A stretch of DNA of 64,000 bases from Escherichia phage RB3, in sequence record KM606994, one strand, 5' to 3'. The notes under the pieces were generated by a model. It was not told the origin of the DNA and made no database searches. It worked only from the letters and a program-made list of their open reading frames with translations. Positions 17,970 through 37,293 of this stretch are shown one piece after another. The position numbers were made by a program, and so were the translations under genes. How positions within the stretch are numbered: position 1 is the first letter of the stretch; every line of letters begins with the position of its first letter.

Positions 17970-18014
17970 GTAGTTGATAGTTGTATAGTACCACAGAGGA
18001 ACAGTCTTGTAAAC
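17970..18014 (-). promoter_or_regulatory. Early promoter cassette
   Basis: Minus strand GTTTACA-16 nt-TGGTACTATAC followed by the conserved box AACTATCAACTAC. Confidence 0.6.
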
Positions 18015-18016
18015 CA

Positions 18017-18331
18017 CTAAAAGAAACTTCTTTCACAATTTTTTCCACTGAACCATGCGCTCACTGCTTTCTTAGTCTCAGGAGCAGTGTTATCCATAAA
18101 CCATTCAAAGGCAGCCTTTTTATGATTCTGGAGGGCTTCTCGGGCTTTAATCTGCTCACGGTCTATTAACACTAACATATGAGCCTTTCTTGTCACCAGG
18201 GGCTTCTTATGATTTTTTGAATATTCCCAATCATTTGTCCATCGCATCGTTGTTGCGAACTGGAATACAGCTTCTTTAATCTTAGTTTCGTAAATTTCAC
18301 GAGCCTTTGAGTATAACATCATTACCTCCAT
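18017..18331 (-). CDS. Hypothetical protein
   Basis: 104-aa ORF. Confidence 0.5.
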   Translation of the reverse strand: MEVMMLYSKAREIYETKIKEAVFQFATTMRWTNDWEYSKNHKKPLVTRKAHMLVLIDREQIKAREALQNHKKAAFEWFMDNTAPETKKAVSAWFSGKNCERSFF

Positions 18332-18401
18332 TTACCAGTTTAATTCTAGTCATCTTTTTGATGACAGTCCATATAATCTATTTCTGAACTGCCTTTTTGT
18401 C

Positions 18402-19128
18402 TTAGGATTCTTCTAAATGTCTTTTCTGAAAAGTTGATACCATACTACGATACGGTTCATTTGGATACCCGTGTTTTATAGCTTCCTTTGTAAATTTTCT
18501 CCATCCATATTTAGTTTTTTTCCAAAGCTCGAATAATTCATCTTCATATTGCCATATAGTTAAATGAGAACGCTTTGCAGCTTTAATTCCATTAATATGC
18601 TTTTCTTTTACTACAGGATTGCTTAGTTTCTTTTTAATAATATTACTAACTTTTCTAACAAAAACTGGGTCCTTATATCGTTGCGAAGTTTTTATTGAAG
18701 TGTTTAATTTAGCTTCCGGCGTGGATGTAACCTCTTTCATCTTTTTCTTCATATGCTGTATATGATTAGGATTTTTCCATAAATTTATAGAATGCTTTTT
18801 GCATTTTATCCTAGTTTCATCTGCAACCTTTCCTCCTTCACCCCCCCCCCCCGTATGACAGGTTAACACAGTTTTTTCCATATTTCAATTTACCTGCCAT
18901 GATATATAATATTTCAGCTTGTACCATTTTATCATAATTATCAAAAACTTCTAAAACCGTTTTTGATAATATGTGGTCATTTGACACTTTTACACGTTCT
19001 ATATAATTTCCACTACCAACATACGAATCATTGATGTTATTAGTTATATGTCGACCATAATAGTATTTCTTAATACCTGTCTTTAAATTTAATATTTCAG
19101 TTTTATAGATAGTAAAATATTTTTTCAT
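18402..19128 (-). pseudogene. GIY-YIG homing endonuclease gene interrupted by a frameshift at a 12-nt homopolymer
   Basis: N-terminal ORF (18838-19128) has the GIY-YIG module YFTIYKT...KKYYYGRH and ends GGGG-stop; C-terminal ORF (18402-18881) has basic repeats; C12 run at 18841-18852 joins them. Confidence 0.65.
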
Positions 19129-20105
19129 TTTAATAATACCGTTTCAGCAATTTCTTCCCAATGGTTTTTGTCGGTCATAATAAAGTCAGCAAGATAAAGT
19201 GCAGTACGCAGTGAAACATTGCGTAAACGATTAACATTGACTTTCATCCATGATAATGCTTTATAAGTTTCTTCATCAGAAAGACCGCGCTTTTGCATCA
19301 TGTCAGTTGAAAGAATAACATCTTCAACCCTGACCATAATTTCTTCATTAGTGTGAACACCCAAATCCAAATAAACTGAGCGGGACACTAATGCTTGTAA
19401 GTGTGGGGCAAGTTTAGTACCACGGTCTAATTCGCGGTCAATGTCAACGTTTGTGATAAAAACAATCGTTCCTTTAAATTCAAACTCACGCTCAATGCCT
19501 TTTTCTTCTAAGTAAGAAGATGCAGTGCTCCAGCAGACTTTACGGGTCTCTCCAGTGTCCAGAGCAGCTTTTAGAAGATTAAGAATGTCCATATCAGAGA
19601 AAACATCCACATCATCAATCAAAAGGACAGAATTCTCTTCACGATTATTCCAAAGTTGTTCATAAAGACCGATACCGGAGATTTTACCGTTAATGCTTTT
19701 ATATTCAATGTATCCAATATCATTTGCTTTATTTAAAGCTTTATCTAAAGAATACGTTTTACCAATGCCTGCTGCTCCTGAGATAATTAATGAACGAATG
19801 TTTCCGTTAATAATACCATTCGTCATCATTCCCATAACATTAAATCTTTTATTAATGCGGGTTTTCATATCTTCATATGATTCTTTAACTTCTTCAACTT
19901 TTACGCCATCATATGAAATGTCTGATTTGTAAACCCAAACACCGCGACGCTTACCGTCAATTTCAACAAAAACTTTACCATCTCCTTGTGCATCTACCGG
20001 AGCATTATCTGGGAACCATTCGCCTAAGAGCTCAAAAGTTCCAGAGATTTCTTTACCAAAGTAGATACCCTTATTGATAGTTACAGTTTTCATTTTATTC
20101 TCCAA
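19125..20105 (-). CDS. AAA+/P-loop ATPase-like protein
   Basis: 326 aa; Walker A ISGAAGIGKT, Walker B VLLIDDVD, sensor-like FITN. Confidence 0.6.
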   Translation of the reverse strand: MENKMKTVTINKGIYFGKEISGTFELLGEWFPDNAPVDAQGDGKVFVEIDGKRRGVWVYKSDISYDGVKVEEVKESYEDMKTRINKRFNVMGMMTNGIINGNIRSLIISGAAGIGKTYSLDKALNKANDIGYIEYKSINGKISGIGLYEQLWNNREENSVLLIDDVDVFSDMDILNLLKAALDTGETRKVCWSTASSYLEEKGIEREFEFKGTIVFITNVDIDRELDRGTKLAPHLQALVSRSVYLDLGVHTNEEIMVRVEDVILSTDMMQKRGLSDEETYKALSWMKVNVNRLRNVSLRTALYLADFIMTDKNHWEEIAETVLLK

Positions 20106-20116
20106 ATCTGTATCAG

Positions 20117-20160
20117 TAGTTGATAGTTGTATAGTACCATAAAGCTTTATGCTTGTAAAC
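20117..20160 (-). promoter_or_regulatory. Early promoter cassette
   Basis: Same conserved sequence as 17970-18014 (tagttgatagttgtatagtacca ... gtaaac on plus strand). Confidence 0.6.
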
Positions 20161-20190
20161 CATTTTGTGAAAAATTTTTGAAATAAAAAA

Positions 20191-20208
20191 GGGAGCCCGA
20201 AGGCTCCC
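20191..20208 (-). terminator. UUCG hairpin plus U-run (intrinsic terminator / stability hairpin)
   Basis: Plus strand aaaaaagggagcccgaaggctccc; minus strand reads hairpin then UUUUUU. Confidence 0.6.
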
Positions 20209-20210
20209 TA

Positions 20211-21257
20211 TCATTTATAATAACTTCGATGGTTTTCGAGATACACCTTCTCAAGGAAGTCATCCCAGAAACCCATGTCCACTTTTTGCTGCATACCGTT
20301 CTTAGAAGCTTCAGTAGATGCTGCTTCTACTTGATCGACCACATCTTCCAAAAACTCTTGAACTGTTTTAAATGGATGCTTACCCAACTTCACGTCGAGA
20401 ATAAATGGAGCATCTTGGAGTGGATAAACCAAGTCACCAGTTTTGTAAATTTCCAATAGTTGGAGTCCACCACGACAAGCATGACTCAGAGCTTTCCAGT
20501 CAATGCCTTCATTGGCTTCGGCCTTACGAGCGCGTTCACCATATTCAGCATCTAATTTGTTCAGTGACTGCTTAAGCTCAATAAGAGAAAGAGTTGTCTG
20601 ATATTTACGACCCAACACAGTGTAGAACGTTTGTGGGCCTGTTTTCTCATGATTATGGAACACCCATTCACAGAATTCGTTTTCTGGAAGACGATGCTTA
20701 ATATCTTCAACTTTAGTGCGACGCTGCTTAATGGAACCGTCTTCTTGGTAATCAACCCATTGCTCAGGGATTTGATTAACTACTTTCAATACATCGCGTA
20801 ATGCAGCCAAACGAGAACCCTTGACACCGTATTTAGAAGCTTGCTTGCGAACATATCCTAAATAGGATTTCATGTTAGTCGTATAAAAACGAGAACGGTT
20901 GTCTTGAATAAACTTCCACACATCAGGCAAATCAGATTTAACTACTAGTTCAGGTGGAGTATGAAGCATATCTAATGCTACAGTTTCACCATCTGCTGCT
21001 AATTTAAAGAAATACTTAAGACTATACAATTCGTGGTCAATATCATCTTTAGTGTTTTTAGATGATGTATTGTTAGTGTTTTTACTCATATGCTCTTTAA
21101 CATTTCCGATAAGAATATCGCGAGCAGGAGGAACAAAGATTTCTTTAAAATCTACATCAGATTCTGGAGTAGAAGTTCCATAAAGATGACTACCAAAATA
21201 AGACTTAACTACAGTTTTCATTATTAGACCTTTCATAATCTTCATTAAATTGTACAA
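20211..21257 (-). CDS. Nucleotidyltransferase-fold protein (pol-beta superfamily-like)
   Basis: 348 aa; N-terminal GS-x-YG-x5-SDVDF signature; start may be the internal Met near 21221. Confidence 0.5.
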   Translation of the reverse strand: MYNLMKIMKGLIMKTVVKSYFGSHLYGTSTPESDVDFKEIFVPPARDILIGNVKEHMSKNTNNTSSKNTKDDIDHELYSLKYFFKLAADGETVALDMLHTPPELVVKSDLPDVWKFIQDNRSRFYTTNMKSYLGYVRKQASKYGVKGSRLAALRDVLKVVNQIPEQWVDYQEDGSIKQRRTKVEDIKHRLPENEFCEWVFHNHEKTGPQTFYTVLGRKYQTTLSLIELKQSLNKLDAEYGERARKAEANEGIDWKALSHACRGGLQLLEIYKTGDLVYPLQDAPFILDVKLGKHPFKTVQEFLEDVVDQVEAASTEASKNGMQQKVDMGFWDDFLEKVYLENHRSYYK

Positions 21258-21984
21258 TCAATCGATGATAATTAGATTTTGGATATCCTAATTTACTTAT
21301 ATAAGTTCCGAATGACCCACGTTTAGGTCTATTTAATTTAATCCATAACTTATAAAGTAAGTCATAGTCTTGCCAATGTTTACCAGTTCTTTGTCTAATT
21401 TTAGATGAATTTGATTGTTTCTTTTTAGTTTCAAAATTATTCAAAGATTTTTTGACTGCAGCAGAGTGTTTTTCTTTAACTCCCGGTCGTTTAAAAGCAG
21501 CTTTCACCCCTTTAGATATTTTTTCTTTAACTTCCGGTTTGTTTTGTGCTTCTAACTGGGATTCTGAAATTTTAGCCCTTATTTCAGGAAGACTTAATGT
21601 TATCGAACGTTTTTCTCTGTATTCATTAGACTTCCACATTTCTTTCATTGTATTAGAATGTATTTTTGAAAATTTTTCTCTAACTAACTGATATCCTCTT
21701 GAAGTTAATTTGAGATTTCTTCCTAAAGAATCTTCTCCAAAATTATAAAATGACCACCATGCATAAATTAATCCAGGCGAATTATAATGAATTTTAGCTA
21801 AAAGCCAATGGGCTATAAAATGCTCTCTAGCTGTTAATAAAACTAGATTATCAGAATCATCATTACCACCAATACAAGATGGAATAATATGATGCTTTTC
21901 CGTATAAAAATTTAATTTAGATTTATCTAATTTTCTGAGTTTTCCTTTCTTAATTAAATTATTATATACTTTAGTATAATTCAT
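21205..21984 (-). CDS. mobD: HNH homing endonuclease (mob-like)
   Basis: 259 aa; HNH motif EKHHIIPSCIGGNDDSDNLVLLTAREHFIAHW and a basic C-terminus; symbol by synteny. Confidence 0.65.
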   Translation of the reverse strand: MNYTKVYNNLIKKGKLRKLDKSKLNFYTEKHHIIPSCIGGNDDSDNLVLLTAREHFIAHWLLAKIHYNSPGLIYAWWSFYNFGEDSLGRNLKLTSRGYQLVREKFSKIHSNTMKEMWKSNEYREKRSITLSLPEIRAKISESQLEAQNKPEVKEKISKGVKAAFKRPGVKEKHSAAVKKSLNNFETKKKQSNSSKIRQRTGKHWQDYDLLYKLWIKLNRPKRGSFGTYISKLGYPKSNYHRLIVQFNEDYERSNNENCS

Positions 21985-22058
21985 TGGTTCTTCGTCTCAT
22001 TTAATTTTGCTTTGCATTTATAACACATGTCTGTTCCACTTGAAATAAACATATTTCC

Positions 22059-22613
22059 TCACTTTGAAATCATAGTTGGAATAACAGAATCAAGATAAGT
22101 CTTTAACGCAATAGCTTCGTCTTTGTTTAATGTAATGATATGTGATCGAAAATCGTCAATTTGACGAATAGATACTACATCTCCCTCTTCATAGCATTTT
22201 GACACATTTAAAATAGTTTCATCATTCTGATTACAGGGGTTAGTAATAATAGCATTGCAATTTTTGAGCCATTTTAAACTATGTTTTCTTTCATTAGAAT
22301 AATAAAAATATTTAATCTTAGCTATAAAACTATCCCAATGGATAACTGATAAACACATTGACTCACTTTTAATATTAAATCCTGGGCATGAAGAATAAAA
22401 ATGAATTTTGTGCTCATCATTGATGCTTACTATTTTATCAGTATAAGGATATTCAATTTGGGTTAAATGAATAATTTCACTAGGTGTAAAATACAGCATA
22501 TCGTCTTCTTGCGTCAAACGATACATATTATTTACTTTTTCTATAGCCAATTCACCAAAAAGTGGACTAACTTCTAATACTAATCGTTTCATATTAATCC
22601 TTTTTAATGGCAT
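22059..22613 (-). CDS. Hypothetical protein
   Basis: 184-aa ORF. Confidence 0.5.
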   Translation of the reverse strand: MPLKRINMKRLVLEVSPLFGELAIEKVNNMYRLTQEDDMLYFTPSEIIHLTQIEYPYTDKIVSINDEHKIHFYSSCPGFNIKSESMCLSVIHWDSFIAKIKYFYYSNERKHSLKWLKNCNAIITNPCNQNDETILNVSKCYEEGDVVSIRQIDDFRSHIITLNKDEAIALKTYLDSVIPTMISK

Positions 22614-22872
22614 GAATTTGTTCTAAAATTTTAGAGTATTCCTTTATATCAGATTTACGTACAATCGATACACTATAAGGCATACTATCGGTGTCTTTTA
22701 TAAAGCGTTCCAAATGACACTCTAACAAAATTTCTGGATTATAAATCGTGTACATCAAATTACCTGTTGCTCCACGATATTGACAGATTTCTACTGATTG
22801 AGCATCATTCCACAATTTTGTTAAGACTAAATCACCTACTTCTAATTTAGGAAAGCCCATGTTATTCACCAA
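22594..22872 (-). CDS. Hypothetical protein
   Basis: 92-aa ORF. Confidence 0.45.
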   Translation of the reverse strand: MVNNMGFPKLEVGDLVLTKLWNDAQSVEICQYRGATGNLMYTIYNPEILLECHLERFIKDTDSMPYSVSIVRKSDIKEYSKILEQIHAIKKD

Positions 22873-23047
22873 TTAAAGTTTCAATATAAGAATCAAGATT
22901 TACTTTAGCTTCTTCCATAAGAGTTTTGTATTTAATCTTGTTAGCATGTCCGGAGAAAGCTGATTCATCAATAACTGTTGCTGTATGAACAGCTTTGCTA
23001 TATGTTTCAATTAATTCTCTTAATTTAAAAGCCTGCTCACTTGTCAT
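22862..23047 (-). CDS. Hypothetical small protein
   Basis: 61-aa ORF. Confidence 0.4.
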   Translation of the reverse strand: MTSEQAFKLRELIETYSKAVHTATVIDESAFSGHANKIKYKTLMEEAKVNLDSYIETLIGE

Positions 23048-23177
23048 TACATACTCCTCTGAATCATATCAATAATGTTATTCACCAAATTATAAGTAAA
23101 CATTGGGTAATTATATTGAATCATCACATACACAACAAACAAAACTTTCATTCTCTTCTCCTTGGCAGTTGACAAGA

Positions 23178-23209
23178 TTACTATACCATAACCTTGCCAA
23201 CTTGTAAAC
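23178..23209 (-). promoter_or_regulatory. T4-type early promoter
   Basis: Minus strand GTTTACA-spacer-TGGTATAGT. Confidence 0.55.
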
Positions 23210-23374
23210 CATTAAATGACGTTTTCGATAAAATTCTGAAGCTTTGTATGAGCATCAACCATGATTTTCATTTCTTCTTTGGCGAAAGCTATACCTCTTT
23301 CCCGAGAAGAACATTCATAGTCAGAAACTGCATTAGCGTATTCTTCAATTAGCTTCATTAAAAACATCTGCTTT

Positions 23375-23569
23375 TCAGTTTTCATTATTCCACCTAATCA
23401 TTTCAAGATATTGAACTAACTTAGCTTTAGATTTATCCAAATCCTTTTTAGCTGCTTCTATACCGTCGTATGAATATCCTTCACAATGCTCAACTGCTAA
23501 TTGATATGAATCTATTTCAATATCATGCGCTAATTTAATGATTTTTTCAAACTGTTCGCGTGTTAGCAT
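23375..23569 (-). CDS. Hypothetical small protein
   Basis: 64-aa ORF. Confidence 0.4.
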   Translation of the reverse strand: MLTREQFEKIIKLAHDIEIDSYQLAVEHCEGYSYDGIEAAKKDLDKSKAKLVQYLEMIRWNNEN

Positions 23570-23571
23570 AC

Positions 23572-23799
23572 TTACACTCTCGTATTATGATCGATAATTT
23601 CATCAAGAAACATATCTAACGCTTCTACAGCATTATTAAATTTAGCTTCAAATTCTTCAATACCTGATAAACCTGATAAGGCAAAGTTAATGCGTTCCTC
23701 ATCTGCTTTACGAATTAAAGCTACCAATTCCTTAATTTTGTCCGCTTGTTCGATACTAATCATTATTCCACCACATATGAAAGAGAGAATATTGCACAC
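23572..23799 (-). CDS. Hypothetical small protein
   Basis: 75-aa ORF. Confidence 0.4.
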
Positions 23800-23996
23800 G
23801 CCATGTGAGTTGCAACTTCATCACACATATTATAACGTTTCTTAAGAAGTTCTACAAGTTCTTCACTAGTAACTTCATCCATGTCGACGAAAAAATCACC
23901 ATTAATGATGACGTAGATATTTCCTTCTTGATTGAGTGCTTCAATTTTCATGATGTTCTCCTCTTTATCCGATAGTTGTATAGTACCACAGCTCAA
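23763..23996 (-). CDS. Hypothetical small protein
   Basis: 77-aa ORF downstream of the promoter cassette. Confidence 0.45.
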
Positions 23997-24009
23997 ACGG
24001 AAAGTAAAC
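23971..24009 (-). promoter_or_regulatory. Early promoter cassette
   Basis: Plus strand gatagttgtatagtacca ... gtaaac. Confidence 0.6.
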
Positions 24010-24025
24010 CGGTAAAATGAAAAAA

Positions 24026-24041
24026 GTCTCCCGAAGGAGAC
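24026..24041 (-). terminator. UUCG hairpin plus U-run
   Basis: Plus strand aaaaagtctcccgaaggagac; minus strand reads GUCUCC-UUCG-GGAGAC then UUUUU. Confidence 0.6.
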
Positions 24042-24046
24042 TAATG

Positions 24047-24433
24047 CTATTCGAGGGAAAGAAGATATTTACTTTGGTAAAACATTCCAGTAATATCATC
24101 TATCGTGCTTTGGATGGCTGGAGGCATTTCTTTATAAATGCTGTTAGATTGGTCTAGTATGCGATCAATCATTTTAATTGTGTCGGTAGGAAGTTTACTG
24201 GCATCTGGAATTGAAGGCGTGTATTTTCTACCAGAATACCCCAAATATTGCTCACCAAATTTATCAATCAAATCTGGCAACTCGGAGAAAATAAAATCGT
24301 ATGCTTTGTGTCTAGCATAACTTTTAGTTTCAAAATGTGCAGAATGAAAATAAGCTTGTGCAGCCATTAATAAACCTAAGTATTCATCTGCCTTTGAAGG
24401 TTTTCCACTTTGTGAAAAGTCGCTGAATTTCAT
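24047..24433 (-). CDS. Hypothetical protein (rI.-1 position)
   Basis: 128-aa ORF overlapping the rI stop. Confidence 0.5.
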
Positions 24434-24723
24434 TCAGTCTCCAATTTAATGTTCATAATTCTAGCGTATGATTGTGCCATCTCCGCGCCTCGTTCTATAC
24501 ATTCAAAATCAGAAGAGCACGGGTCATTTTTATAGGTCGTTCTCATAAAACTATAGAATTGTTCAGACGATTCTACGCTTTTATTTTCAAAAAGCATATA
24601 AACGTGCCTAATACCAGATTCCATAAATTTATCAAAATGAGGATCGACATTCGCTTCAATTGGTGGAGATAAAGCAAATGACAATCCTAGCATGGCAAAT
24701 AGTGCCGTTGCTTTTAAGGCCAT
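24430..24723 (-). CDS. rI: Lysis inhibition regulator rI
   Basis: 97 aa with an N-terminal signal-anchor; sequence (MALKATALFAMLGLSF...) matches my memory of T4 RI. Confidence 0.85.
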   Translation of the reverse strand: MALKATALFAMLGLSFALSPPIEANVDPHFDKFMESGIRHVYMLFENKSVESSEQFYSFMRTTYKNDPCSSDFECIERGAEMAQSYARIMNIKLETE

Positions 24724-24735
24724 AAAGGCCTCCTA

Positions 24736-24948
24736 TCATTTTTGTCCTGTATTTACTTTATGCCGATGCACGGCCTTAACTTTATCAAGGTATTTTTCAA
24801 AATTTCGCAATCTAGTATAGTCTGCCGGAGATTGGTTGAGTGATACTTCTCGACGCAAAGCTGAAATGATATTTCCAACTTCCCTACGAATTTCATCTAA
24901 TTGAAGCACAGTAAGATTGCGAAGTTGCTTTTCAGTTAATTGTAGCAT
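24736..24948 (-). CDS. Hypothetical small protein
   Basis: 70-aa ORF. Confidence 0.45.
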
Positions 24949-24990
24949 ATATACCCCTTTAGTTAGATAAACCTATTTATAACTTTTGCA

Positions 24991-25572
24991 CTAACCGAGC
25001 TTTTTAGTTAATTCATTCCAATGTTTTCTACACAAAGAAACATAAATTTCATCACCAATACAGATTTGATTACCTTCTTTAACTGGTGTTCCATCTTCCA
25101 TTAATCGAGCTGTCATAATCGCTTTTTTACCGCAATGACAAACTGCCTTTAGTTCAATAAGTTTATCTGCAATCGCTAAAAGTTCTTTAGAACCTTCAAA
25201 TAATTTTCCAGCGAAATCAGTCCTTAATCCATAAGCCATAACAGGAACATTATATGTATCAACAATTCGACTTAATTGATGCACCTGTTCAGTTTTTAAA
25301 AATTGGGCTTCATCTACAAATACGCAATGAATATCTTTTTGTGCTTCAGCCCATTTATAGAACTCGAAAATATCCATATCATCTGTAATAATATTCGCTT
25401 CCTGTTTAATTCCAATGCGAGAAACAACTTCACAGACAGAATCGCGAGTATCAATAGCGGGTTTAAGAACTAATACACTCATTCCACGTTCTTTATAATT
25501 ATGTGCGGCAGTCAAAAGAGAAGCAGATTTTCCAGCATTCATTGCTGCATAAGTAAAAATTAAACTCGCCAT
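24991..25572 (-). CDS. tk: Thymidine kinase
   Basis: 193 aa; P-loop AAMNAGKS and C-terminal Zn-ribbon cysteines; T4 Tk-like. Confidence 0.9.
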   Translation of the reverse strand: MASLIFTYAAMNAGKSASLLTAAHNYKERGMSVLVLKPAIDTRDSVCEVVSRIGIKQEANIITDDMDIFEFYKWAEAQKDIHCVFVDEAQFLKTEQVHQLSRIVDTYNVPVMAYGLRTDFAGKLFEGSKELLAIADKLIELKAVCHCGKKAIMTARLMEDGTPVKEGNQICIGDEIYVSLCRKHWNELTKKLG

Positions 25573-27689: not shown

Positions 27690-28151
27690 TCATTGAGTTT
27701 TAATTACTGCTTTAGAAGCCTTTCCTGGTAAACGACGACTGTTAATAATTGCCATCCTGCATTGAAGCGACGGGTCTTTGAACTTCGCATTAGGTTTACA
27801 AACTGTAAATCCAAGCCAAAGATTTCCATCTGTGATTTCTAAACGTCCAGGACGATATTCAACCCCATCAATAAAATCCTCGTCAATGTCAGGACGCGGA
27901 GGCATACTCAGGGATTCATTAACTTCTAAAACATGGTCTTTTATTTTATGGAATAATTCAAAAACATATGTCTCATCAATCTCCCGTTGAATTGCGCGAT
28001 CAAGAAGATGTTGAGAATATTTTAGATGAAACGATGAGACTCCTGCTGCTTTTGATGCCTCACGAATCTCATTGTTAATTTGACGAAACTCCGACTCAAA
28101 GTGACGACGAAGCTTATTTCGACGGATAAAAACTTCTGTATTGATAGTCAT
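27690..28151 (-). CDS. regB: Endoribonuclease RegB
   Basis: 153 aa; sequence (MTINTEVFIRRNKLRRHFESEFRQINNEIREASKAAG...) matches my memory of T4 RegB. Confidence 0.85.
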   Translation of the reverse strand: MTINTEVFIRRNKLRRHFESEFRQINNEIREASKAAGVSSFHLKYSQHLLDRAIQREIDETYVFELFHKIKDHVLEVNESLSMPPRPDIDEDFIDGVEYRPGRLEITDGNLWLGFTVCKPNAKFKDPSLQCRMAIINSRRLPGKASKAVIKTQ

Positions 28152-28178
28152 GTTATTCTCCTCTTAACTGATAGAAAA

Positions 28179-28208
28179 ATTATACCACAGTCAAGAGGAA
28201 AAGTAAAC
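28179..28208 (-). promoter_or_regulatory. T4-type early promoter upstream of regB
   Basis: Minus strand GTTTAC-spacer-TGGTATAAT. Confidence 0.65.
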
Positions 28209-30349: not shown

Positions 30350-30823
30350 TTATTTGAACGATTTAACGTACTGAATAGAACCTTTACTATTCACGAAAGC
30401 GATTTTACCATTTTTATTATACATGGTAGCAGTACGCTGATAGCCATAAGTTTGCTTACCAGATTGATAACCAACTAATGCAAAATTATCTTCACCCATT
30501 TTATTCTGTTTAGCGCGAATGCGTTCATGACCATGCGCCATAAGAACCTTAGCATCACCAGTTGCAATGGATCGACGAGTTTTTTCATCTTCAACTGTAT
30601 TAACAAAGTCGTCAAATGAATCAAATTTAGCATGAGATTTATTATACAGTTTTCCATCTACTGCATAATTATATCCCTGTACATCCATCTCAACTTCTGT
30701 ACCATCATCCAGTACAGCAGTGATTTTCTGTCCTTTTTTAAATTTCAAAAGATCAGTAAAAGATTCAGCAATAATTTGAGAATTAATAGCTGCTTCAGTA
30801 ATAAATTCTTGATATGTTTTCAT
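30350..30823 (-). CDS. Internal protein (IPIII-like) with capsid-targeting N-terminus
   Basis: 157 aa; N-terminal MKTYQEFITE, the T4 internal-protein targeting/cleavage signature. Confidence 0.6.
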   Translation of the reverse strand: MKTYQEFITEAAINSQIIAESFTDLLKFKKGQKITAVLDDGTEVEMDVQGYNYAVDGKLYNKSHAKFDSFDDFVNTVEDEKTRRSIATGDAKVLMAHGHERIRAKQNKMGEDNFALVGYQSGKQTYGYQRTATMYNKNGKIAFVNSKGSIQYVKSFK

Positions 30824-30917
30824 GTGTATCCTTTAAATGTAAATATTTTAATTAATAATTTATCTCTTCAAGTAACTGTGAATATACTATCACAATTCTA
30901 GGAGAAAGTAAATAACT

Positions 30918-31886
<969 letters not shown>

Positions 31887-32375: not shown

Positions 32376-32734
32376 TTAATTTTCCTACAATCACTCACAA
32401 ACTCTTCCATTGATTCTTTTTCAATATAAGACATGTAGCTATTATATTCTTTTAATTGTATTTTGTAATCTTTTTTTCTTTGCCAATTTATTTTAAAATT
32501 ATCATAATGAAAATATAACATGGTACCAAAGAATGAAAATAATGAAATAATTTTAGTATAGTGAAGTTCACTCCAAACTTCTATTATATTTACTGTGCCG
32601 TCAATGTTTAAAATAAGACAGTCAATTAACAATCCAAAAAGACTACCCGCAAGAGCTGCAGCCAACGCCACAGCAAAAATTAAAAATGACTCAGGAAGCG
32701 AATATTTGACTTTATTTAGTTTTGGCTTTTGCAT
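32372..32734 (-). CDS. Membrane protein, paralog 2
   Basis: 120 aa; hydrophobic helices; C-terminal tail ...FVSDCRKIK. Confidence 0.55.
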   Translation of the reverse strand: MQKPKLNKVKYSLPESFLIFAVALAAALAGSLFGLLIDCLILNIDGTVNIIEVWSELHYTKIISLFSFFGTMLYFHYDNFKINWQRKKDYKIQLKEYNSYMSYIEKESMEEFVSDCRKIK

Positions 32735-33108: not shown

Positions 33109-33685
33109 ATTCTCTGCATTCCTTCACAAATTTTTCTAGTAATAAATCGCTTTCAAAATTGGGATTTTCTACGAATTTATCAAAAAGATCATCAACAATA
33201 GTTAAGATATTCTTTTTACTAAGAATACGTTTATTTTCATGCTTCGTTTCAGAATCAACTATAAGAGTAAAGAAATATTTCTTTCCCTGAAATTTTACCG
33301 TAGTATCAATATAGAATAAATTTGACTTTTGTAAGTTACGTTTAAACCATGCGTCACTTAAACTATAAACGCCAAGATAATCATAATCGTCGTTTAAATA
33401 ACAAACTGTCCATTCAGGAGAAATGAAATCAGTAAATTCAACATCAAAATCACACGTCAATGAATGAATTGATTCAATACTGTTAATAAGTATTCCAGGA
33501 CGTATTAAAGACTTTTTACCTCTGGAAAATCTTCCAGAAAGACTTTCATCAGTTTCATATGAAGAACCCCAATAATAATTACGTCCTTCTGCCATACGTT
33601 TAAGAGCATGTAGTAATTGGTCTGGAACATCAACCTGTCTTTGGAACTCTTCAAACATTGAATTGAAATCACTTTGCATTTTCAT
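33077..33685 (-). CDS. Hypothetical protein
   Basis: 202-aa ORF. Confidence 0.5.
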   Translation of the reverse strand: MKMQSDFNSMFEEFQRQVDVPDQLLHALKRMAEGRNYYWGSSYETDESLSGRFSRGKKSLIRPGILINSIESIHSLTCDFDVEFTDFISPEWTVCYLNDDYDYLGVYSLSDAWFKRNLQKSNLFYIDTTVKFQGKKYFFTLIVDSETKHENKRILSKKNILTIVDDLFDKFVENPNFESDLLLEKFVKECREYVKAINVSSK

Positions 33686-33716
33686 TCCTATTTACTCCAA
33701 GTAATAGGGGCCGAAG

Positions 33717-33730
33717 CCCCTTATCATTAT
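33717..33730 (-). promoter_or_regulatory. Intercistronic C(UUCG)G hairpin
   Basis: Plus strand ggggccgaagcccc. Confidence 0.55.
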
Positions 33731-34320
33731 TTCAGAGAATTAATGTATTCCTGAACATCGGCAGAAGTAGTTTCAACCCCAGAAATATTACCATTAAAGG
33801 TTTCAACTCGAGCAAGAGTATCTTCAATATCAACCTTAGTCAGCGCTGCAATTTCAACTACATCATCGGCAGTACTAATTCCAAGTGCATTCGCTGCTCG
33901 AGTTTCACGGATATATTCCAATTTAACTGCAAGTTCTTGGCGAGCATCATCCAATTCAACTACTTTCTTGGCGATTTCAATTCGCATTTCAGCATACCCA
34001 TCAGCTTTAGTAGTTAACTGTTCAGCTGTTCGACGATATAGCAAGCCGAGTTTAGCATGCATTGTTACATCTTGACCTTCGGAAAGAAGCTTGCGAATTT
34101 CACGCTCTTTTGATTCGGCTTGCCGATTCTTTTCAACAATAAGTTCACGAATACGTTTTTCTTCATTAATAGATTTAATAGAAGCAGTTTTTAGATCTTT
34201 AATTTTATCAAGCAGTTTTGCTGCTGCGGCAGTATACTGTTCTTCAACAGATAGATTTTTAGCCATAGCAGAACCAAGTTTAGTGCGAATAAACTCAACA
34301 ATTTTCTTCAGTGTGTTCAT
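33727..34320 (-). CDS. PspA/IM30-like coiled-coil protein
   Basis: 197 aa, predicted almost entirely helical; overall pattern resembles the phage-shock protein A family (from memory, no search). Confidence 0.4.
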
Positions 34321-34609
34321 AGTATTTCCTTAGGTTAATTAAGATTTAAAATCCATGAGAGTATTATACTCCGGATAGTTTGTAAACTATTTCAACATCG
34401 CCTTTTGCTGCTTTATAACCTTCAGCCCAAGATACAACCGAGTTTTTATCTGAAGATTCAAATTCTGGCATTGGGCTTTCGCCAATGTTCACACAGTATG
34501 TTTCTTCATTTTCGTCAAACCAAATAATTAAAGTAGTCATTTATTTCTCCGTTTTCTGTATTTGTTTTGATAAGTCTATAATAACACCGTCCTTGGCGTT
34601 TGTACACAA

Positions 34610-34885
34610 TTATTTCATATTATTGAAATATTCTTCTGCGATTTCATCGTTATCATGGTAAACTTTAGAAGACAGTTTAACATAACCTTCAGCAGTGAAC
34701 ATGTTAATCACAACCTTTACAGTATACCACTGACCATCTTCATTACCCATTACTGCGTAAGTTTCAAACATCGGATGGTCAGGACCGATAACTTTAATAT
34801 CATTCACTGTACGACCAAAATCTTCTGAAACACATTTCATAAAGAAGTTGAACAGTTCGCCGTAATTATCCATTTTATTCTCCAA
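34610..34885 (-). CDS. Hypothetical protein
   Basis: 91-aa ORF downstream of the promoter cassette. Confidence 0.5.
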   Translation of the reverse strand: MENKMDNYGELFNFFMKCVSEDFGRTVNDIKVIGPDHPMFETYAVMGNEDGQWYTVKVVINMFTAEGYVKLSSKVYHDNDEIAEEYFNNMK

Positions 34886-34900
34886 GTTGTTTTCTGTATC

Positions 34901-34946
34901 AGTAGTTGATAGTTGTATAGTACCATGGAAGAACAGGGATGTAAAC
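34901..34946 (-). promoter_or_regulatory. Early promoter cassette
   Basis: Plus strand agtagttgatagttgtatagtacca ... gtaaac. Confidence 0.6.
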
Positions 34947-35084
34947 AGTTTTGTGAAAAAATTTTTAAAAAGTTTTAGGGAATTCTAGGGCGGGGAGGGG
35001 CAATTAAAAGATAGGATAATATATTATAAAGGATATAAACTAAATGATGCCTAGAGAGACAAGGAAAGGCCTAGATACCAAAAA

Positions 35085-35106
35085 GCCCCAACCTTTCGGT
35101 CGGGGC
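35085..35106 (-). terminator. Intrinsic terminator downstream of the tRNA/small-RNA cluster
   Basis: Minus strand GCCCCGACC-GAAA-GGUUGGGGC followed by UUUU. Confidence 0.55.
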
Positions 35107-35109
35107 TAA

Positions 35110-35420
35110 GCCTTGCGGCAACCTTGTCGGGGTTCCACCTGCTAAGGCAAGTGTTTGTACGAAACGCCGGGATTCGAACCCGGTTATTAAGCAGTTGACG
35201 CTACTCAATATTTTTAAAAGGCCATATCTCGACCATATCCGAACGTTCCGTCAAAAACGCTACTCGGCTTACGGCAAAGATATTTCCTCGAATCGATAAT
35301 TTGGTGCGCCGTTTCTGCTGTGATATAAGGGGGCATTAACAAAACATAAAGATTTATTAATGCCAGTCCTTAAACAGGGAACATCAGTCCGACGACTTGC
35401 CGGTAGCGACCCGGCTTCTT
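35110..35420 (-). ncRNA. Candidate stable small RNA(s) downstream of tRNA-Arg (band C/D-like)
   Basis: No ORF; tRNA-like T-arm CCGGGTTCGAATCCCGG at ~35165-35181, a CCA-ended hairpin near 35300-35340; boundaries not determined. Confidence 0.3.
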
Positions 35421-35423
35421 GTC

Positions 35424-35499
35424 TGGTCGAGGCAGTAGGGATCGAACCTACGACCCAGGACTTAGAAGGTCCTTGCTCTTCCTTCTGAGCTATGCCTCG
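35424..35499 (-). tRNA. tRNA-Arg (anticodon UCU)
   Basis: Hand-folded cloverleaf; anticodon loop CUUCUAA; CCA encoded. Confidence 0.8.
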
Positions 35500-35503
35500 T
35501 ATT

Positions 35504-35578
35504 TGGCGGACGTGATAGGATTCGAACCTATAACCAATCGCTTAACAGGCGATCGCTCTGCCATTGAGCTACACATCC
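35504..35578 (-). tRNA. tRNA-Asn (anticodon GUU)
   Basis: Hand-folded cloverleaf; anticodon loop CUGUUAA; CCA encoded. Confidence 0.7.
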
Positions 35579-35582
35579 AAAT

Positions 35583-35669
35583 TGGTGGGGAGTGATGGAG
35601 TCGAACCACCCGAGTCGCAATGACAATGGATTTACAGTCCACACCGCTACCTCTACGGGATAACTCCCC
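35583..35669 (-). tRNA. tRNA-Tyr (anticodon GUA), long variable arm
   Basis: 87 nt; anticodon loop CUGUAAA; T-arm GGTGG-TTCGACT-CCATC; CCA encoded. Confidence 0.65.
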
Positions 35670-35678
35670 TAATTAATT

Positions 35679-35753
35679 TGGTGGCCCTGGGTGGAATTGA
35701 ACCACCATCTGGCGATTATGAGTCGCTTGCTTGAACCTTCCAGCTACAGGGCC
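35679..35753 (-). tRNA. tRNA with CAU anticodon (Met or Ile2)
   Basis: Anticodon loop CUCAUAA; acceptor GGCCCTG/CAGGGCC; CCA encoded. Confidence 0.65.
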
Positions 35754-35754
35754 T

Positions 35755-35830
35755 TGGCGCTGATTGACGGAATCGAACCGCCGACATCCTCATTACAAGT
35801 GAGGTGCTCTACCTACTGAGCTAAATCAGC
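35755..35830 (-). tRNA. tRNA-Thr (anticodon UGU)
   Basis: Anticodon loop CUUGUAA; CCA encoded. Confidence 0.8.
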
Positions 35831-35835
35831 AAAAC

Positions 35836-35925
35836 TGGCGGAGGCGATAGGATTTGAACCTATGAGTCGCCGGAGCGACTGCCGGTTTTCAAGACCGGTG
35901 CATTAAACCACTCTGCCACGCCTCC
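35836..35925 (-). tRNA. tRNA-Ser (anticodon UGA), long variable arm
   Basis: 90 nt; anticodon loop CUUGAAA; CCA encoded. Confidence 0.8.
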
Positions 35926-35927
35926 AG

Positions 35928-36001
35928 TCTCCATACAAGGATTTGAACCTTGGACCTCCTGATCCCAAATCAGGCGCTCTACCAAACTGAGCTACACGGA
36001 G
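35928..36001 (-). tRNA. tRNA-Pro (anticodon UGG)
   Basis: Anticodon loop UUUGGGA; CCA not encoded. Confidence 0.75.
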
Positions 36002-36011
36002 TAAATTAAAT

Positions 36012-36085
<74 letters not shown>

Positions 36086-36090
36086 AAATT

Positions 36091-36177
36091 TGGTGCGAGA
36101 AGTGGGACTCGAACCCACAAGGAAATCATTCCGCAGCATTTTAAGTGCTGTGCCTTTACCAATTTGACCATTCTCGC
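36091..36177 (-). tRNA. tRNA-Leu (anticodon UAA), long variable arm
   Basis: 87 nt; anticodon loop CUUAAAA; CCA encoded. Confidence 0.8.
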
Positions 36178-36179
36178 GC

Positions 36180-36251
36180 TGGGAATAAAGGACTCGAACC
36201 TTTGCATCCTGGAATCAAAATCCAGTGCCTTACCAACTTGGCTAATTCCCA
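36180..36251 (-). tRNA. tRNA-Gln (anticodon UUG)
   Basis: Anticodon loop UUUUGAU; CCA not encoded. Confidence 0.75.
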
Positions 36252-36348
36252 ATTATTAACAAAGGCTCTCTAACAAGAACCCTTGATGATAGAGGGTATT
36301 AATCAGTGCGGTATGAGTTAATAATAACAAATAATTCTTAAAGCATAT

Positions 36349-36636
36349 TTACCATTTATGATAATACGTATTTACGATACATTCAAGACCCAAAGGATTC
36401 TTGAAAATATCATATTCAAGAGGACCTTTTTCTGTTTCAATAAAGAAATCAAAATTTACTATATTAAATTTACGGTCTTCCTTCACTAATTTAACCTGAG
36501 AAGATGAACGGTCAATGTAAACCTTTTCAACTTCAAAACATGTTAAAATGCCATAATCATCAATCAAGTCTTTAGCTGCTTCTTGATCATATTTATATCC
36601 ATTTTCAATGGATGATACTTTAGCATAAAGAATCAT
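36349..36636 (-). CDS. Hypothetical protein
   Basis: 95-aa ORF. Confidence 0.5.
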   Translation of the reverse strand: MILYAKVSSIENGYKYDQEAAKDLIDDYGILTCFEVEKVYIDRSSSQVKLVKEDRKFNIVNFDFFIETEKGPLEYDIFKNPLGLECIVNTYYHKW

Positions 36637-36638
36637 TA

Positions 36639-37049
36639 TCAGCCTCTATCAACGATAGTATGAGTATGGGCATTTACGATTTGCCACCAATCAAAGCGAT
36701 TGGAACCATAATCCGGTTTATTTTCATTTTCTTTAATGATATCACGTAGTTTATCTTCTGTTTCAGCATACGCAATTAAATCATCATATCCACCACAAGG
36801 ATAATAATTATCACCTGCAAATAAAAGAAAATTTACCTTAGATGGATTTACGTAATAATGATCTTTAGGGTATTTAGTTCCTCTCCAATCAGTTACTTCA
36901 ACATAACGATAAGAAAATCCATTTTTGCTTTCAATCCAACTCCACGCTTCAAAAGGAGTATTAAAAACTTTATCAGGTATTAAATTACCTTCAAAATGAG
37001 AAGGATTTGCATAATCCCCAGCATAAACATAATATTCGTTAATACTCAT
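36639..37049 (-). CDS. Hypothetical protein
   Basis: 136-aa ORF, rich in Tyr/Trp/Asp. Confidence 0.5.
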   Translation of the reverse strand: MSINEYYVYAGDYANPSHFEGNLIPDKVFNTPFEAWSWIESKNGFSYRYVEVTDWRGTKYPKDHYYVNPSKVNFLLFAGDNYYPCGGYDDLIAYAETEDKLRDIIKENENKPDYGSNRFDWWQIVNAHTHTIVDRG

Positions 37050-37235
37050 TTATTCACCTTTAGAAATTTTATCCATAACAATAGCGATTAAACCAATTAA
37101 AAATGCTACTACAAGTGAAAACACATTTTCTGCTGTAGTCAATAATCCGCATATAAATCCAACAAACATTGAAAAACTAAAAGCAGAAGCAGAAATTGCA
37201 ATAGCAACATTTCGAATTAATTCACAGCGTTTCAT
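37050..37235 (-). CDS. Small hydrophobic membrane protein
   Basis: ORF trimmed to the internal Met (MKRCELIRN...) because the upstream part overlaps the promoter; one or two TM helices. Confidence 0.45.
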   Translation of the reverse strand: MKRCELIRNVAIAISASAFSFSMFVGFICGLLTTAENVFSLVVAFLIGLIAIVMDKISKGE

Positions 37236-37248
37236 TTTATTCTCCTCG

Positions 37249-37293
37249 GTAGTTGATAGGGTAATAGTATCACTACTAAAACCCCATGTAAAC
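37249..37293 (-). promoter_or_regulatory. Early promoter cassette (variant)
   Basis: Plus strand gtagttgatagggtaatagtatcactactaaaaccccatgtaaac. Confidence 0.55.

What the first reader, a model, noticed from the sequence alone, without database searches (positions are those of the whole stretch)
17970..37293. Repeated early-promoter cassette with a conserved downstream box, sometimes paired with UUCG hairpins
The near-identical ~23-nt sequence tagttgatagttgtatagtacca (plus strand; on the transcribed strand TGGTACTATAC-AACTATCAACTA) recurs at 17970, 20117, 23971 and 34901, with a variant at 37249, each about 16 nt from a GTTTAC -35. The identity extends beyond what -35/-10 function requires. 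At 20191 and 24026 a UUCG hairpin with a U-run sits immediately upstream, forming terminator-promoter units. Such repeats can act as portable recombination substrates that move ORFs between genomes.
Basis: seen in the sequence. Interest (0 to 1): 0.4.

Follow-up and report, generated by a model that had tools for sequence, protein, structure and literature searches.

The report
T4-type early promoter cassettes (PeSL)
The repeated 23-base box is the core and transcription-start region of a family of phage T4-type early promoters, some placed right after a terminator hairpin; such promoter/terminator cassettes are already described, and are known to act as crossover points where small genes are gained and lost.

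Summary
The window is a T4-like coliphage (Tequatrovirus RB10; 3 substitutions in 64 kb). The box occurs exactly three times, once with only its first 18 nt conserved, and once as a variant. Each copy lies 15 nt after GTTTAC, upstream of nrdC.8, nrdC.10, mobD.5, e.8 and tRNA.4. UUCG terminators precede two copies.

The box breaks down into known elements:
- TGG, the extended -10
- TACTAT, the -10
- ACAACT, the discriminator
- ATCAACTAC, the predicted +1 to +9

About 8 of roughly 35 early promoters genome-wide share it. A T4 paralog with the identical box is annotated as a promoter in GenBank X75802. The conserved GGAGAATAAAATG block is the published RegB/S1 cleavage site. The cassettes are mosaic, and alleles are shared between non-orthologous loci, which indicates ectopic recombination.

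The recombination reading holds at the nrdC.10 copy. There, 155 phage genomes carry a two-ORF module whose left junction lies inside the box. It also holds at other early promoters (a T6 deletion, the IP loci). It does not hold at the other three box copies.

All of this is published (T4 early promoters; PeSL cassettes, Arbiol 2010, Comeau 2014).

One side observation may be new. In about 40% of early promoters the -35/-10 spacer pairs with the gene's own 5'UTR/Shine-Dalgarno. At regB this pairing covaries across seven genera.

The parts
17954..18014 (-). Early promoter cassette of nrdC.8. -35 GTTTAC 18014-18009; TGG 17993-17991; -10 TACTAT 17990-17985; discriminator ACAACT 17984-17979; predicted +1 A 17978; ATCAACTAC 17978-17970; SD GGAGG 17969-17965; ATG 17956-17954.
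   Evidence: The +1 position is inferred from the -10 spacing and was not measured.
17961..18003 (-). Predicted hairpin spanning the nrdC.8 promoter. The 5' arm UGUUCCUCUGUGGU (18003-17990) pairs with ACUACGGAGGAACA (17974-17961). The -10 lies in the loop and the SD in the 3' arm.
   Evidence: dG -22.5, z -6.4, 0/200 shuffles as stable. Orthologues in other clades keep an SD-pairing or -10-flanking stem with different sequence.
20091..20183 (-). Early promoter cassette of nrdC.10. A/T-rich UP region 20161-20183; -35 20160-20155; TGG 20139-20137; -10 20136-20131; predicted +1 A 20124; box to 20116; GGAGAATAAAA (SD and RegB/S1 consensus) 20103-20093; ATG 20093-20091.
20180..20209 (-). Intrinsic-terminator-like hairpin after nrdC.11: AGGGAGCC-UUCG-GGCUCCCU plus a U-run.
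   Evidence: Conserved in T4, T6, RB14 and Lv5cm. Annotated 'terminator' in other records.
23949..24009 (-). Early promoter cassette of mobD.5. -35 24009-24004; TGG 23988-23986; -10 23985-23980; ACAACT 23979-23974; predicted +1 A 23973; the box diverges after ATC; ATG 23951-23949.
   Evidence: RT stop at the T4 mobD.5 promoter in PMC1702504.
24015..24042 (-). Intrinsic-terminator-like hairpin after rI.-1: AGUCUCC-UUCG-GGAGACU plus a U-run.
   Evidence: Conserved in four other phages. Annotated 'terminator' or 'promoter' in Lutter, G9062 and fPS-90.
34871..34975 (-). Early promoter cassette of e.8. UP region AAAAATTTTTTCACAAAACT; -35 34946-34941; TGG 34925-34923; -10 34922-34917; predicted +1 A 34910; box to 34902; long leader; GGAGAATAAAA; ATG 34873-34871.
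37233..37293 (-). Variant cassette of tRNA.4. -35 37293-37288; TGA; -10 TACTAT 37269-37264; TACCCT; ATCAACTAC 37257-37249; GAGGAGAATAAAATG; ATG 37235-37233.
28149..28208 (-). regB early promoter, same class but without the box (-35 28208-28203, -10 TATAAT 28184-28179). An embedded hairpin pairs 28202-28185 with 28174-28156 and covers the SD.
   Evidence: dG -22.4, z -5.3. Compensatory stems in 7 genera. Left end of the T6 deletion.
30821..30913 (-). Ip4 early promoter (ATTTAC 30913-30908, TAGTAT 30889-30884). It is the right end of the T6 deletion and the boundary of the Ip4 versus ipIII/ipII/denV replacement.
37597..38020 (-). Two near-identical internal-protein promoter cassettes (Ip5: -10 at 37966; ipI: -10 at 37635) that bound the Ip5 gene. 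T4 lacks Ip5, with the junction inside the repeat.
23149..23209 (-). mobD.2 early promoter (-10 TATAGT 23185-23180) with a tight hairpin flanking the -10.
   Evidence: z -3.8

Best explanation
The repeats are paralogous copies of one sub-type of the T4-type early promoter, read by host sigma-70 RNA polymerase immediately after infection. The 23-nt 'box' is not a separate element. It consists of:
- the extended -10 (TGG)
- the -10 hexamer (TACTAT)
- the discriminator (ACAACT)
- the first nine transcribed bases (ATCAACTAC; +1 = A is inferred)

Upstream lie the GTTTAC -35 and, in most copies, an A/T-rich UP region (AAAAATTTTTTCACAAAAnn). Downstream lies a GGAG Shine-Dalgarno, which in three copies is the full RegB/S1 cleavage consensus GGAGAAUAAAA.

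Two copies follow a UUCG-tetraloop intrinsic terminator. That makes them the terminator+promoter units published as PeSLs.

Two forces keep the identity high. (i) Each block is functionally constrained: a weaker ct-ATCAAcTA start-site consensus and a G-poor leader are shared by early promoters outside the sub-family and in other genera. (ii) Copies recombine or gene-convert ectopically using the phage's own recombination system, which produces mosaic cassettes.

A by-product is that the cassettes serve as crossover points for gain, loss and exchange of small early ORFs.

Shown here: sequence anatomy, family membership, mosaicism, and natural indel junctions at cassettes. Inferred: the transcription start, terminator activity, and the recombination mechanism.
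For: Identity of the phage and gene context.

Promoter anatomy and genome-wide family: 8 of about 35 sites carry TGGTACTATACAACTATC, including imm.1, frd.3 and motA.

General consensus: with the sub-family removed, the remaining 28 promoters still give '..c.t atcaa.ta'. An unbiased IMG/VR sample anchored only on GTTTAC-N15-TGN-TACTAT gives -1 T 65%, +1 A 85% and at most 12% G at each of +1..+9.

Prior annotation and experiment:
- GenBank X75802 marks -35 and TACTAT as -10 on a T4 paralog with the exact 24-mer.
- PMC1702504 reports the mobD.5 promoter RT stop and GGAGAAUAAAA as the RegB/S1 site.
- PMC2988021 states that T4 early promoters are UP/-35/TGn/-10 promoters with additional consensus regions.

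Terminators; six such units occur genome-wide.

Mosaicism and conversion:
- nrdC.8 and ndd.5 share the spacer and leader but differ in -10 and discriminator.
- Both alleles (TACTAT-ACAACT and TATTAT-TACCCT) occur at both loci in different phages.
- The nrdC.10 leader is e.8-like in RB10 and Lv5cm but RB10_269-like in T4, T6 and RB14.

Recombination:
- EC101/PM107 insertion with its junction after ATCAA of the box and a second cassette on the right.
- The module is in 155 records and crosses genera.
- T6 deletion joined at two -35 hexamers, and the Ip5 indel in a cassette repeat.
- 11 of 37 synteny breakpoints fall in cassettes that cover 6.2% of the region (binomial 1e-5).

Published model: PMC2839356 and PMC4122927.
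Against: - No transcription data were available for this phage. The +1 and promoter activity are inferred from orthology and spacing.
- Exact shared tracts between copies are only 18-36 nt, short for efficient T4 homologous recombination.
- None of the 37 breakpoints in the four-genome comparison falls in the four box cassettes.
- The native junctions at nrdC.8, mobD.5 and e.8 are intact in 497/652, 498/500 and 512/534 records.
- Predicted deletions between box copies occur in 0 records.
- The T6 and Shinka deletions use only about 9-12 nt of microhomology, and Shinka has only one end in a cassette. Part of the association may therefore reflect illegitimate recombination plus selection for intergenic breakpoints.
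- The box is not invariant: -1 T>C at mobD.5 in T4, RB14 and Lv5cm.
Confidence: 0.85

Rival explanations
1. The downstream part of the box (ATCAACTAC) acts mainly at the RNA level. It would be the conserved, G-poor, unstructured 5' end of immediate-early mRNAs (ribosome/S1 loading or stability). In some cassettes it would also be the partner of the spacer/extended -10 in a hairpin that forms only in read-through transcripts and masks the Shine-Dalgarno.
For: - The leader is G-poor and A/C-rich across genera.
- ATCAACTAC is kept at the nrdC.8 promoter in three clades, while the spacer, -10 allele, discriminator and SD context change.
- ACUAC pairs with GUGGU in the nrdC.8 hairpin.
- Promoter-embedded hairpins are strongly enriched: 14/34 have z<-3 against 1.3% of random windows.
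Against: - Three of the four box copies (20136, 23985, 34922) show no significant hairpin (z +0.8, -0.8, -1.0).
- The box diverges after ATC at mobD.5 and frd.3.
- No translation or stability data exist.
- This reading is compatible with the best explanation rather than exclusive of it.
Confidence: 0.25
2. The box is an operator: a binding site for a phage-encoded or host protein overlapping the start site, for example the factor responsible for the still unexplained shut-off of early promoters 2-3 min after infection or for Alt/ModA-dependent modulation.
For: - Identity extends across the start site.
- The mechanism of early promoter shut-off is described as not completely understood (PMC3014915).
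- Alt stimulation differs between promoters with identical -35/TGn/-10 (PMC2988021).
Against: - Only about 8 of 35 early promoters carry the box, whereas shut-off is general.
- The sequence has no dyad symmetry.
- The discriminator is freely exchanged (ACAACT or TACCCT) at the same locus.
- No candidate binding protein was identified here.
Confidence: 0.04
3. The copies are simply recent segmental duplications or linker sequences whose primary role is recombination (modular shuffling). Under this view the sequence downstream of the -10 has no regulatory function.
For: - The PeSL literature.
- Insertion junction inside the box at nrdC.10.
- Enrichment of breakpoints in cassettes.
Against: - A recent duplication would preserve the spacer, yet the spacers are unrelated while the flanking blocks are identical.
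- The same start-site consensus appears in promoters outside the sub-family and in other genera.
- Three of the four copies are structurally stable across about 500 genomes.
Confidence: 0.1

Closest known systems
Bacteriophage T4 early promoters (Pe); consensus of Liebig & Rueger 1989 and Wilkens & Rueger as summarised in Hinton 2010, PMC2988021
   Same: A/T-rich UP region, GTTTAC -35, TGn extended -10, TAnnnT -10 with the same spacing, location upstream of early-strand genes, and extra consensus beyond the hexamers. A T4 paralog with the identical 24-mer is annotated as a promoter (X75802).
   Different: Nothing essential. The finding concerns one sub-type (TACTAT-ACAACT-ATCAACTAC), carried by about a quarter of the promoters, in the T4 relative RB10.
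PeSL (promoter-early stem-loop) cassettes of T4-like phages (Arbiol et al. 2010 PMC2839356; Comeau et al. 2014 PMC4122927, which covers the T4/PST pair with consensus TTTACW-N17-TAYWAT)
   Same: Composite stem-loop/terminator + early promoter + SD + ATG unit of about 100 bp, lying between small ORFs of hyperplastic regions and associated with indels and ORF replacement between close relatives.
   Different: Only 2 of the 5 copies have an adjacent upstream terminator. Three of the four box copies show no polymorphism. Mini-circle intermediates could not be tested.
RegB/S1 cleavage site GGAGAAUAAAA (Durand et al. 2006, PMC1702504)
   Same: The conserved block just before the ATG in cassettes 20136, 34922 and 37269 is exactly this 11-mer. 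nrdC.8 (GGAGGAACACA) is reported as moderately cut and mobD.5 as resistant, matching their sequences here.
   Different: It explains the 3' conserved block of the cassette, not the 23-nt box itself.
Promoter-inside-hairpin translational masking of T4 genes e, soc, 49 and I-TevI (reviewed in PMC3014915)
   Same: The 5' arm of an SD-sequestering hairpin lies upstream of a promoter, so only transcripts from that promoter are translatable. The nrdC.8 and regB cassettes have this geometry.
   Different: The documented cases use late promoters. Here the promoter is an early one and the 5' arm is the -35/-10 spacer itself. I found no description of this in the held literature.
Anti-SD 'insulation' encoded within bacterial sigma-54 promoters (bioRxiv 10.1101/086108)
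   Same: A pyrimidine-rich promoter sequence pairs with the downstream SD and silences translation from read-through transcripts.
   Different: Different sigma factor, different organism, and no phylogenetic relation. It is an analogy only.

Membership tests
T4-type early promoter (Pe) | GTTTAC at -36..-31 with a 17-nt spacer (TTTACN hexamer) to a TAnnnT -10 | tested here: met
   All five copies. The same geometry holds in about 35 sites genome-wide.
T4-type early promoter (Pe) | TGn extended -10 | tested here: met
   TGG in four copies, TGA in the 37269 variant.
T4-type early promoter (Pe) | A/T-rich UP element at -40..-60 | tested here: met
   AAAAATTTTTTCACAAAAnn at 20136, 34922 and 37269. 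At 23985 the position is taken by the terminator U-run. It is weaker at 17990, where it overlaps the end of nrdC.9.
T4-type early promoter (Pe) | Initiation by unmodified host RNA polymerase immediately after infection, independent of phage protein synthesis | not testable with these tools
   Indirect only: the X75802 promoter annotation of an identical paralog, the RT stop at the T4 mobD.5 promoter 3 min after infection, and regB being described as a typical early promoter.
PeSL cassette | Early promoter combined with an adjacent stem-loop able to terminate or attenuate upstream transcription | tested here: met
   UUCG hairpin plus U-run 15 and 29 nt upstream of the -35 at 23985 and 20136. 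The e.8 copy has a GAAA hairpin about 140 nt upstream. The nrdC.8 and tRNA.4 copies have no upstream terminator but do have hairpins spanning the -10. Termination activity was not measured.
PeSL cassette | Ends with the SD and start codon of a small ORF in a hyperplastic region | tested here: met
   ATG lies 28-46 nt after the -10. The genes are nrdC.8, nrdC.10, mobD.5, e.8 and tRNA.4 in the nrdC-tk and e-tRNA-ipI regions.
PeSL cassette | Coincides with insertion, deletion or replacement junctions between related genomes | tested here: inconclusive
   Met at the nrdC.10 copy and at non-box cassettes. Not met at the nrdC.8, mobD.5 and e.8 copies. There is one deletion with a single end in the mobD.5 -10, and no box-to-box deletion in any record.
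PeSL cassette | Formation of excised mini-circles by recombination between flanking cassettes | not testable with these tools
   Requires PCR or sequencing of infected-cell or virion DNA.
Rho-independent terminator | G+C-rich stem, stable tetraloop and a U-run immediately 3' | tested here: met
   8-bp stem (6 GC) and 7-bp stem (4 GC), both with a UUCG loop and 5-6 U. The terminator-like count in the region was 21 against 9.9 expected.
Rfam RNA families | Match to any curated RNA family at the cassettes | tested here: not met
   Only the 10 tRNAs were reported in 14500-38500 at gathering threshold.

The most novel reading that the evidence does not exclude
The 'variable' -35/-10 spacers of T4-type early promoters may not be neutral. 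In roughly 40% of these promoters the spacer would be the 5' arm of a hairpin. The loop of that hairpin is the extended -10. Its 3' arm is the gene's own start-site region, 5'UTR and often Shine-Dalgarno; at nrdC.8 this includes the ACUAC end of the box.

The 5' arm lies upstream of the transcription start. Only read-through transcripts from upstream promoters can therefore fold. Such transcripts would be translationally masked, and their GGAG would be hidden from RegB. Each such gene, regB among them, would then be expressed only from its own immediate-early promoter.

At regB, five different, fully compensated inner stems occur in seven genera. I found no description of this for early promoters in the literature I could read.
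Probability: 0.3. Interest if true: 0.5.

Novelty: already known. Interest (0 to 1): 0.2.

Why it matters
As a finding it mainly confirms textbook T4 biology in a T4 relative: very strong early promoters, terminator-promoter punctuation, RegB-targeted ribosome-binding sites, and promoter cassettes as hot spots of modular gene exchange.

It gives a clean, nucleotide-level natural example of the PeSL model in Tequatrovirus. A two-ORF module sits in the nrdC.11/nrdC.10 slot, has one junction inside the start-site box, and is shared with Karamvirus phages.

The side observation would extend the known 'promoter inside a hairpin' control from a few late-expressed genes to the early class, and it would explain why the spacers differ between otherwise identical cassettes.

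Tried and rejected
- **Predicted deletions between adjacent box copies.** Synthetic junction queries P20136->P17990 and P23985->P20136 found 0 records covering at least 80%. The P23985->P17990 and P34922->P23985 junctions were built but not searched.
- **Pairs-spanning-the--10 as a hairpin measure.** It does not discriminate: 51/79 chance matches also reach 6 or more pairs. I dropped it in favour of z-scores.
- **Terminator or embedded hairpin as alternatives.** I asked whether cassettes with an upstream terminator lack the embedded hairpin. The trend is not significant (Fisher p 0.36, Mann-Whitney p 0.09).
- **MAFFT alignment of regB promoters for a formal pair count.** The alignment did not keep the CUCC/GGAG anchors in register, so no count of structure pairs test was run. 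Covariation is reported from the per-sequence folds only.
- **Rfam.** Nothing but tRNAs.
- **Literature.** Miller et al. 2003 (PMC150520) and Uzan 1988 (PMC282613) are not held. Searches for prior descriptions of dyad symmetry or anti-SD in T4 early promoters found nothing relevant.
- **Shinka deletion.** It looked like a box-mediated event, but only one end lies in a cassette.

Full report
**What the window is.** Bases 17000-25000 are 100% identical to Enterobacteria phage RB10 (KM606999.1, Tequatrovirus). Over the whole 64 kb the window differs from RB10 positions 32000-95999 by three substitutions. The finding spans the early-strand (minus) region from nrdC.8 to ipI.

**Observation.**
- The 23-mer is exact at 17971, 20117 and 34903. 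A copy at 23966 shares its first 18 transcribed-strand bases. None were expected by chance.
- All four read GTTTAC-N15-TGGTACTATACAACTATC.
- A variant, TACTAT-TACCCT-ATCAACTAC, lies at 37249-37269.
- The copies lie 28-46 nt upstream of the start codons of nrdC.8, nrdC.10, mobD.5, e.8 and tRNA.4.
- The -35/-10 spacers of the copies are unrelated, while the sequence from TGG onward is identical.
- UUCG-tetraloop hairpins with U-runs lie at 20190-20209 and 24025-24042, 29 and 15 nt upstream of the -35.

**Anatomy of the box.** Read against the T4 early-promoter architecture (UP / GTTTAC / TGn / TAnnnT; PMC2988021), the box breaks down as follows:

| Segment | Role |
|---|---|
| TGG | extended -10 |
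| TACTAT | -10 |
| ACAACT | discriminator |
| ATCAACTAC | positions +1 to +9 (+1 = A is inferred from spacing) |

- GenBank X75802 (T4 ndd region) annotates a promoter on a T4 paralog carrying the identical 24-mer, with AGTTTAC as -35 and TACTAT as -10.
- A reverse-transcriptase stop at the T4 mobD.5 promoter is reported in PMC1702504.
- The conserved GGAGAATAAAATG before the start codons of nrdC.10, e.8 and tRNA.4 is the published 11-nt RegB/S1 target GGAGAAUAAAA. In that paper nrdC.8 is 'moderately cleaved' and mobD.5 resistant, which fits their sequences here.

**Family.**
- In the reassembled RB10 genome, about 35 sites on the early strand fit GTTTAC-N18-TAnnnT followed by an SD and ATG.
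- Eight carry TGGTACTATACAACTATC: imm.1, nrdC.8, nrdC.10, mobD.5, e.8, frd.3, motA, and a TAATAT variant before RB10_269. Three more carry the TACCCT-ATCAACTA variant.
- With the sub-family removed, the remaining 28 promoters still give a weak '..c.t ATCAA.TA' consensus.
- An IMG/VR sample selected only on GTTTAC-N15-TGN-TACTAT shows -1 T 65%, +1 A 85%, and a G-poor, A/C-rich leader.
- The start-site part of the box is therefore one frequent version of a class-wide feature. PMC2988021 notes such 'additional regions of consensus'.
- Six RB10 early promoters have a terminator immediately upstream, four of them with UUCG loops.

**Why the copies are so alike.**
- The cassettes are mosaics. nrdC.8 and ndd.5 share -35, spacer and leader but differ in -10 and discriminator.
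- In other phages the two alleles (TACTAT-ACAACT and TATTAT-TACCCT) are found at either locus.
- The nrdC.10 leader is e.8-like in RB10 and Lv5cm but RB10_269-like in T4, T6 and RB14.
- e.8 and imm.1 share 36 nt, and e.8 and nrdC.10 share 34 nt.
- This points to ectopic recombination or gene conversion acting on functionally constrained blocks. It does not look like one recent duplication, which would have preserved the spacers.

**Recombination test.**
- Four genomes (T4, T6, RB14, Lv5cm) were compared with window 12-42 kb. Of 37 synteny breakpoints, 11 fall in twelve early-promoter cassettes that cover 6.2% of the sequence (binomial 1e-5). The null is naive, because surviving breakpoints favour intergenic DNA in any case.
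- Clear cases:
  - T6 lacks vs.3-Ip4, with the junction exactly at the -35 hexamers of the regB and Ip4 promoters (about 9 nt of shared GTTTACTTT).
  - T4 lacks Ip5, with the junction inside the roughly 124-bp repeat of the Ip5 and ipI cassettes.
  - ipI/Ip6 and Ip4/ipIII replacements are bounded by cassettes.
  - RB14 has an extra ORF at the hairpin 35084-35107.
- None of the 37 breakpoints is in the four box cassettes.
- In the wider phage collection the native junctions are intact in 497/652 records (nrdC.8), 498/500 (mobD.5) and 512/534 (e.8). No record carries the two predicted box-to-box deletions that I searched.
- The nrdC.10 copy is different. EC101, PM107, HY03 and others carry two extra ORFs (50 and 87 aa) between nrdC.11 and nrdC.10.
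  - Homology with RB10 runs through the terminator, UP, -35, spacer and the box as far as ATCAA, then breaks.
  - The module ends with a second early-promoter cassette. Homology resumes at TTGGAGAATAAAATG.
  - phiD1 has a different ORF in the same slot.
  - The two-ORF module is present in 155 records. These include Karamvirus Enterobacter phages at about 90% nucleotide identity, while the adjacent nrdC.11 is about 68% identical.
- This is the behaviour described for PeSL cassettes (PMC2839356, PMC4122927).
- One deletion (phage Shinka) starts inside the mobD.5 TGGTACTA but ends within nrdC.10, with about 12 nt of microhomology. It is not cassette-to-cassette.

**Side observation: hairpins embedded in the promoters.**
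- Folding the stretch from the spacer to the start codon shows strong hairpins with the -10 in the loop:

| Promoter | dG (kcal/mol) | z |
|---|---|---|
| nrdC.8 | -22.5 | -6.4 |
| regB | -22.4 | -5.3 |
| mobD.2 | not quoted | -3.8 |
| Ip5 | not quoted | -4.7 |

- Genome-wide, 14 of 34 promoters have z<-3 and the mean is -2.3. Random early-strand windows give 1.3% with z<-3 and a mean of -0.24.
- In the unbiased IMG/VR sample, 17/34 promoter-like sites have z<-2, against 11/79 other matches.
- In about 8-9 of the 14 strong cases the 3' arm contains the Shine-Dalgarno (my reading of the structures).
- At regB, seven genera keep the outer UCUCC/GGAGA pairing: Tequatrovirus, two further clades from IMG/VR, Gelderlandvirus, Kanagawavirus, Karamvirus and Jiaodavirus.
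- Five different, fully complementary inner stems occur:
  - UUGACUG / CAGUUAA
  - UAGUUG / CAACUA
  - UGUAAGU / ACUUACA
  - UCUUUAUG / CAUAAAGA
  - UUUUAGU / ACUAAAA
- nrdC.8 orthologues show the same behaviour.
- The 5' arm lies upstream of the start site, so only read-through transcripts can fold.
- The documented T4 examples of this logic (e, soc, 49, I-TevI) use late promoters (PMC3014915). The regB section of that review does not mention a hairpin.
- Three of the four box copies have no significant hairpin, so this does not explain the box.
- I could not reach the older T4 literature, so I do not claim novelty.

**Verdict.** It describes T4 early promoters and PeSL-type terminator/promoter cassettes, both already published, including for the T4/PST pair. 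Interest is low for the finding itself. The embedded anti-SD hairpins are the only part that may add something.

Noticed in passing
window 28156-28202 (regB), 17961-18003 (nrdC.8), 23150-23205 (mobD.2), 37935-37980 (Ip5); RB10 genome-wide: In about 40% of early promoters the -35/-10 spacer is complementary to the discriminator, 5'UTR and often the SD, giving a hairpin with the -10 in the loop. 14/34 have z<-3, against 1.3% of random windows. At regB the stem covaries across seven genera.
   Followed up: partly
window 28209 / 30900 versus T6 locus L018 about 31537-31562: Phage T6 lacks the 2.7-kb vs.3-Ip4 block. The junction fuses the upstream half of the Ip4/ipIII promoter to the regB promoter exactly at the -35 hexamer (shared GTTTACTTT).
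   Followed up: yes
L257 905-1330 (EC101), L259 (PM107), L262 1301-1718 (Karamvirus KMB20); slot = window about 20100-20124: A two-ORF module (50 aa + 87 aa, one annotated DUF4031) occupies the nrdC.11/nrdC.10 slot in 155 phage records. It is about 90% identical between Tequatrovirus and Karamvirus, while the flanking nrdC.11 is about 68% identical, which suggests recent inter-genus transfer.
   Followed up: partly
window 35084-35107 (minus strand): A 10-bp GAAA-loop hairpin with a U-run lies downstream of rnaC. RB14 carries an extra 564-bp ORF (RB14ncORF136c) inserted here, with a 27-bp overlap of the hairpin at the junction.
   Followed up: partly
window 18406-19145: RB10 has a shortened seg-like homing-endonuclease ORF (339 bp, RB10_095) plus RB10_096 between nrdC.10 and nrdC.9. 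T6, RB14 and Lv5cm have a 720-bp version and T4 has none. The indel is not bounded by promoter cassettes and looks like homing-endonuclease gain and decay.
   Followed up: no
L260 (phage Shinka MZ502379), maps to window 23978 / 19423: A natural 4.55-kb deletion removes mobD.5 through most of nrdC.10. One end lies inside the mobD.5 promoter TGGTACTA and the other inside the nrdC.10 coding sequence, with about 12 nt of microhomology.
   Followed up: yes
window 33706-33721 (minus strand): A UUCG-tetraloop hairpin AGGGGC-UUCG-GCCCCU lies in the e.6/e.5 intergenic space without a following U-run. It may be an mRNA-stabilising or processing hairpin rather than a terminator.
   Followed up: no
window 1993, 19385, 53662: These are the only three positions at which the window differs from the RB10 record KM606999.1 (same-offset comparison).
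   Followed up: no
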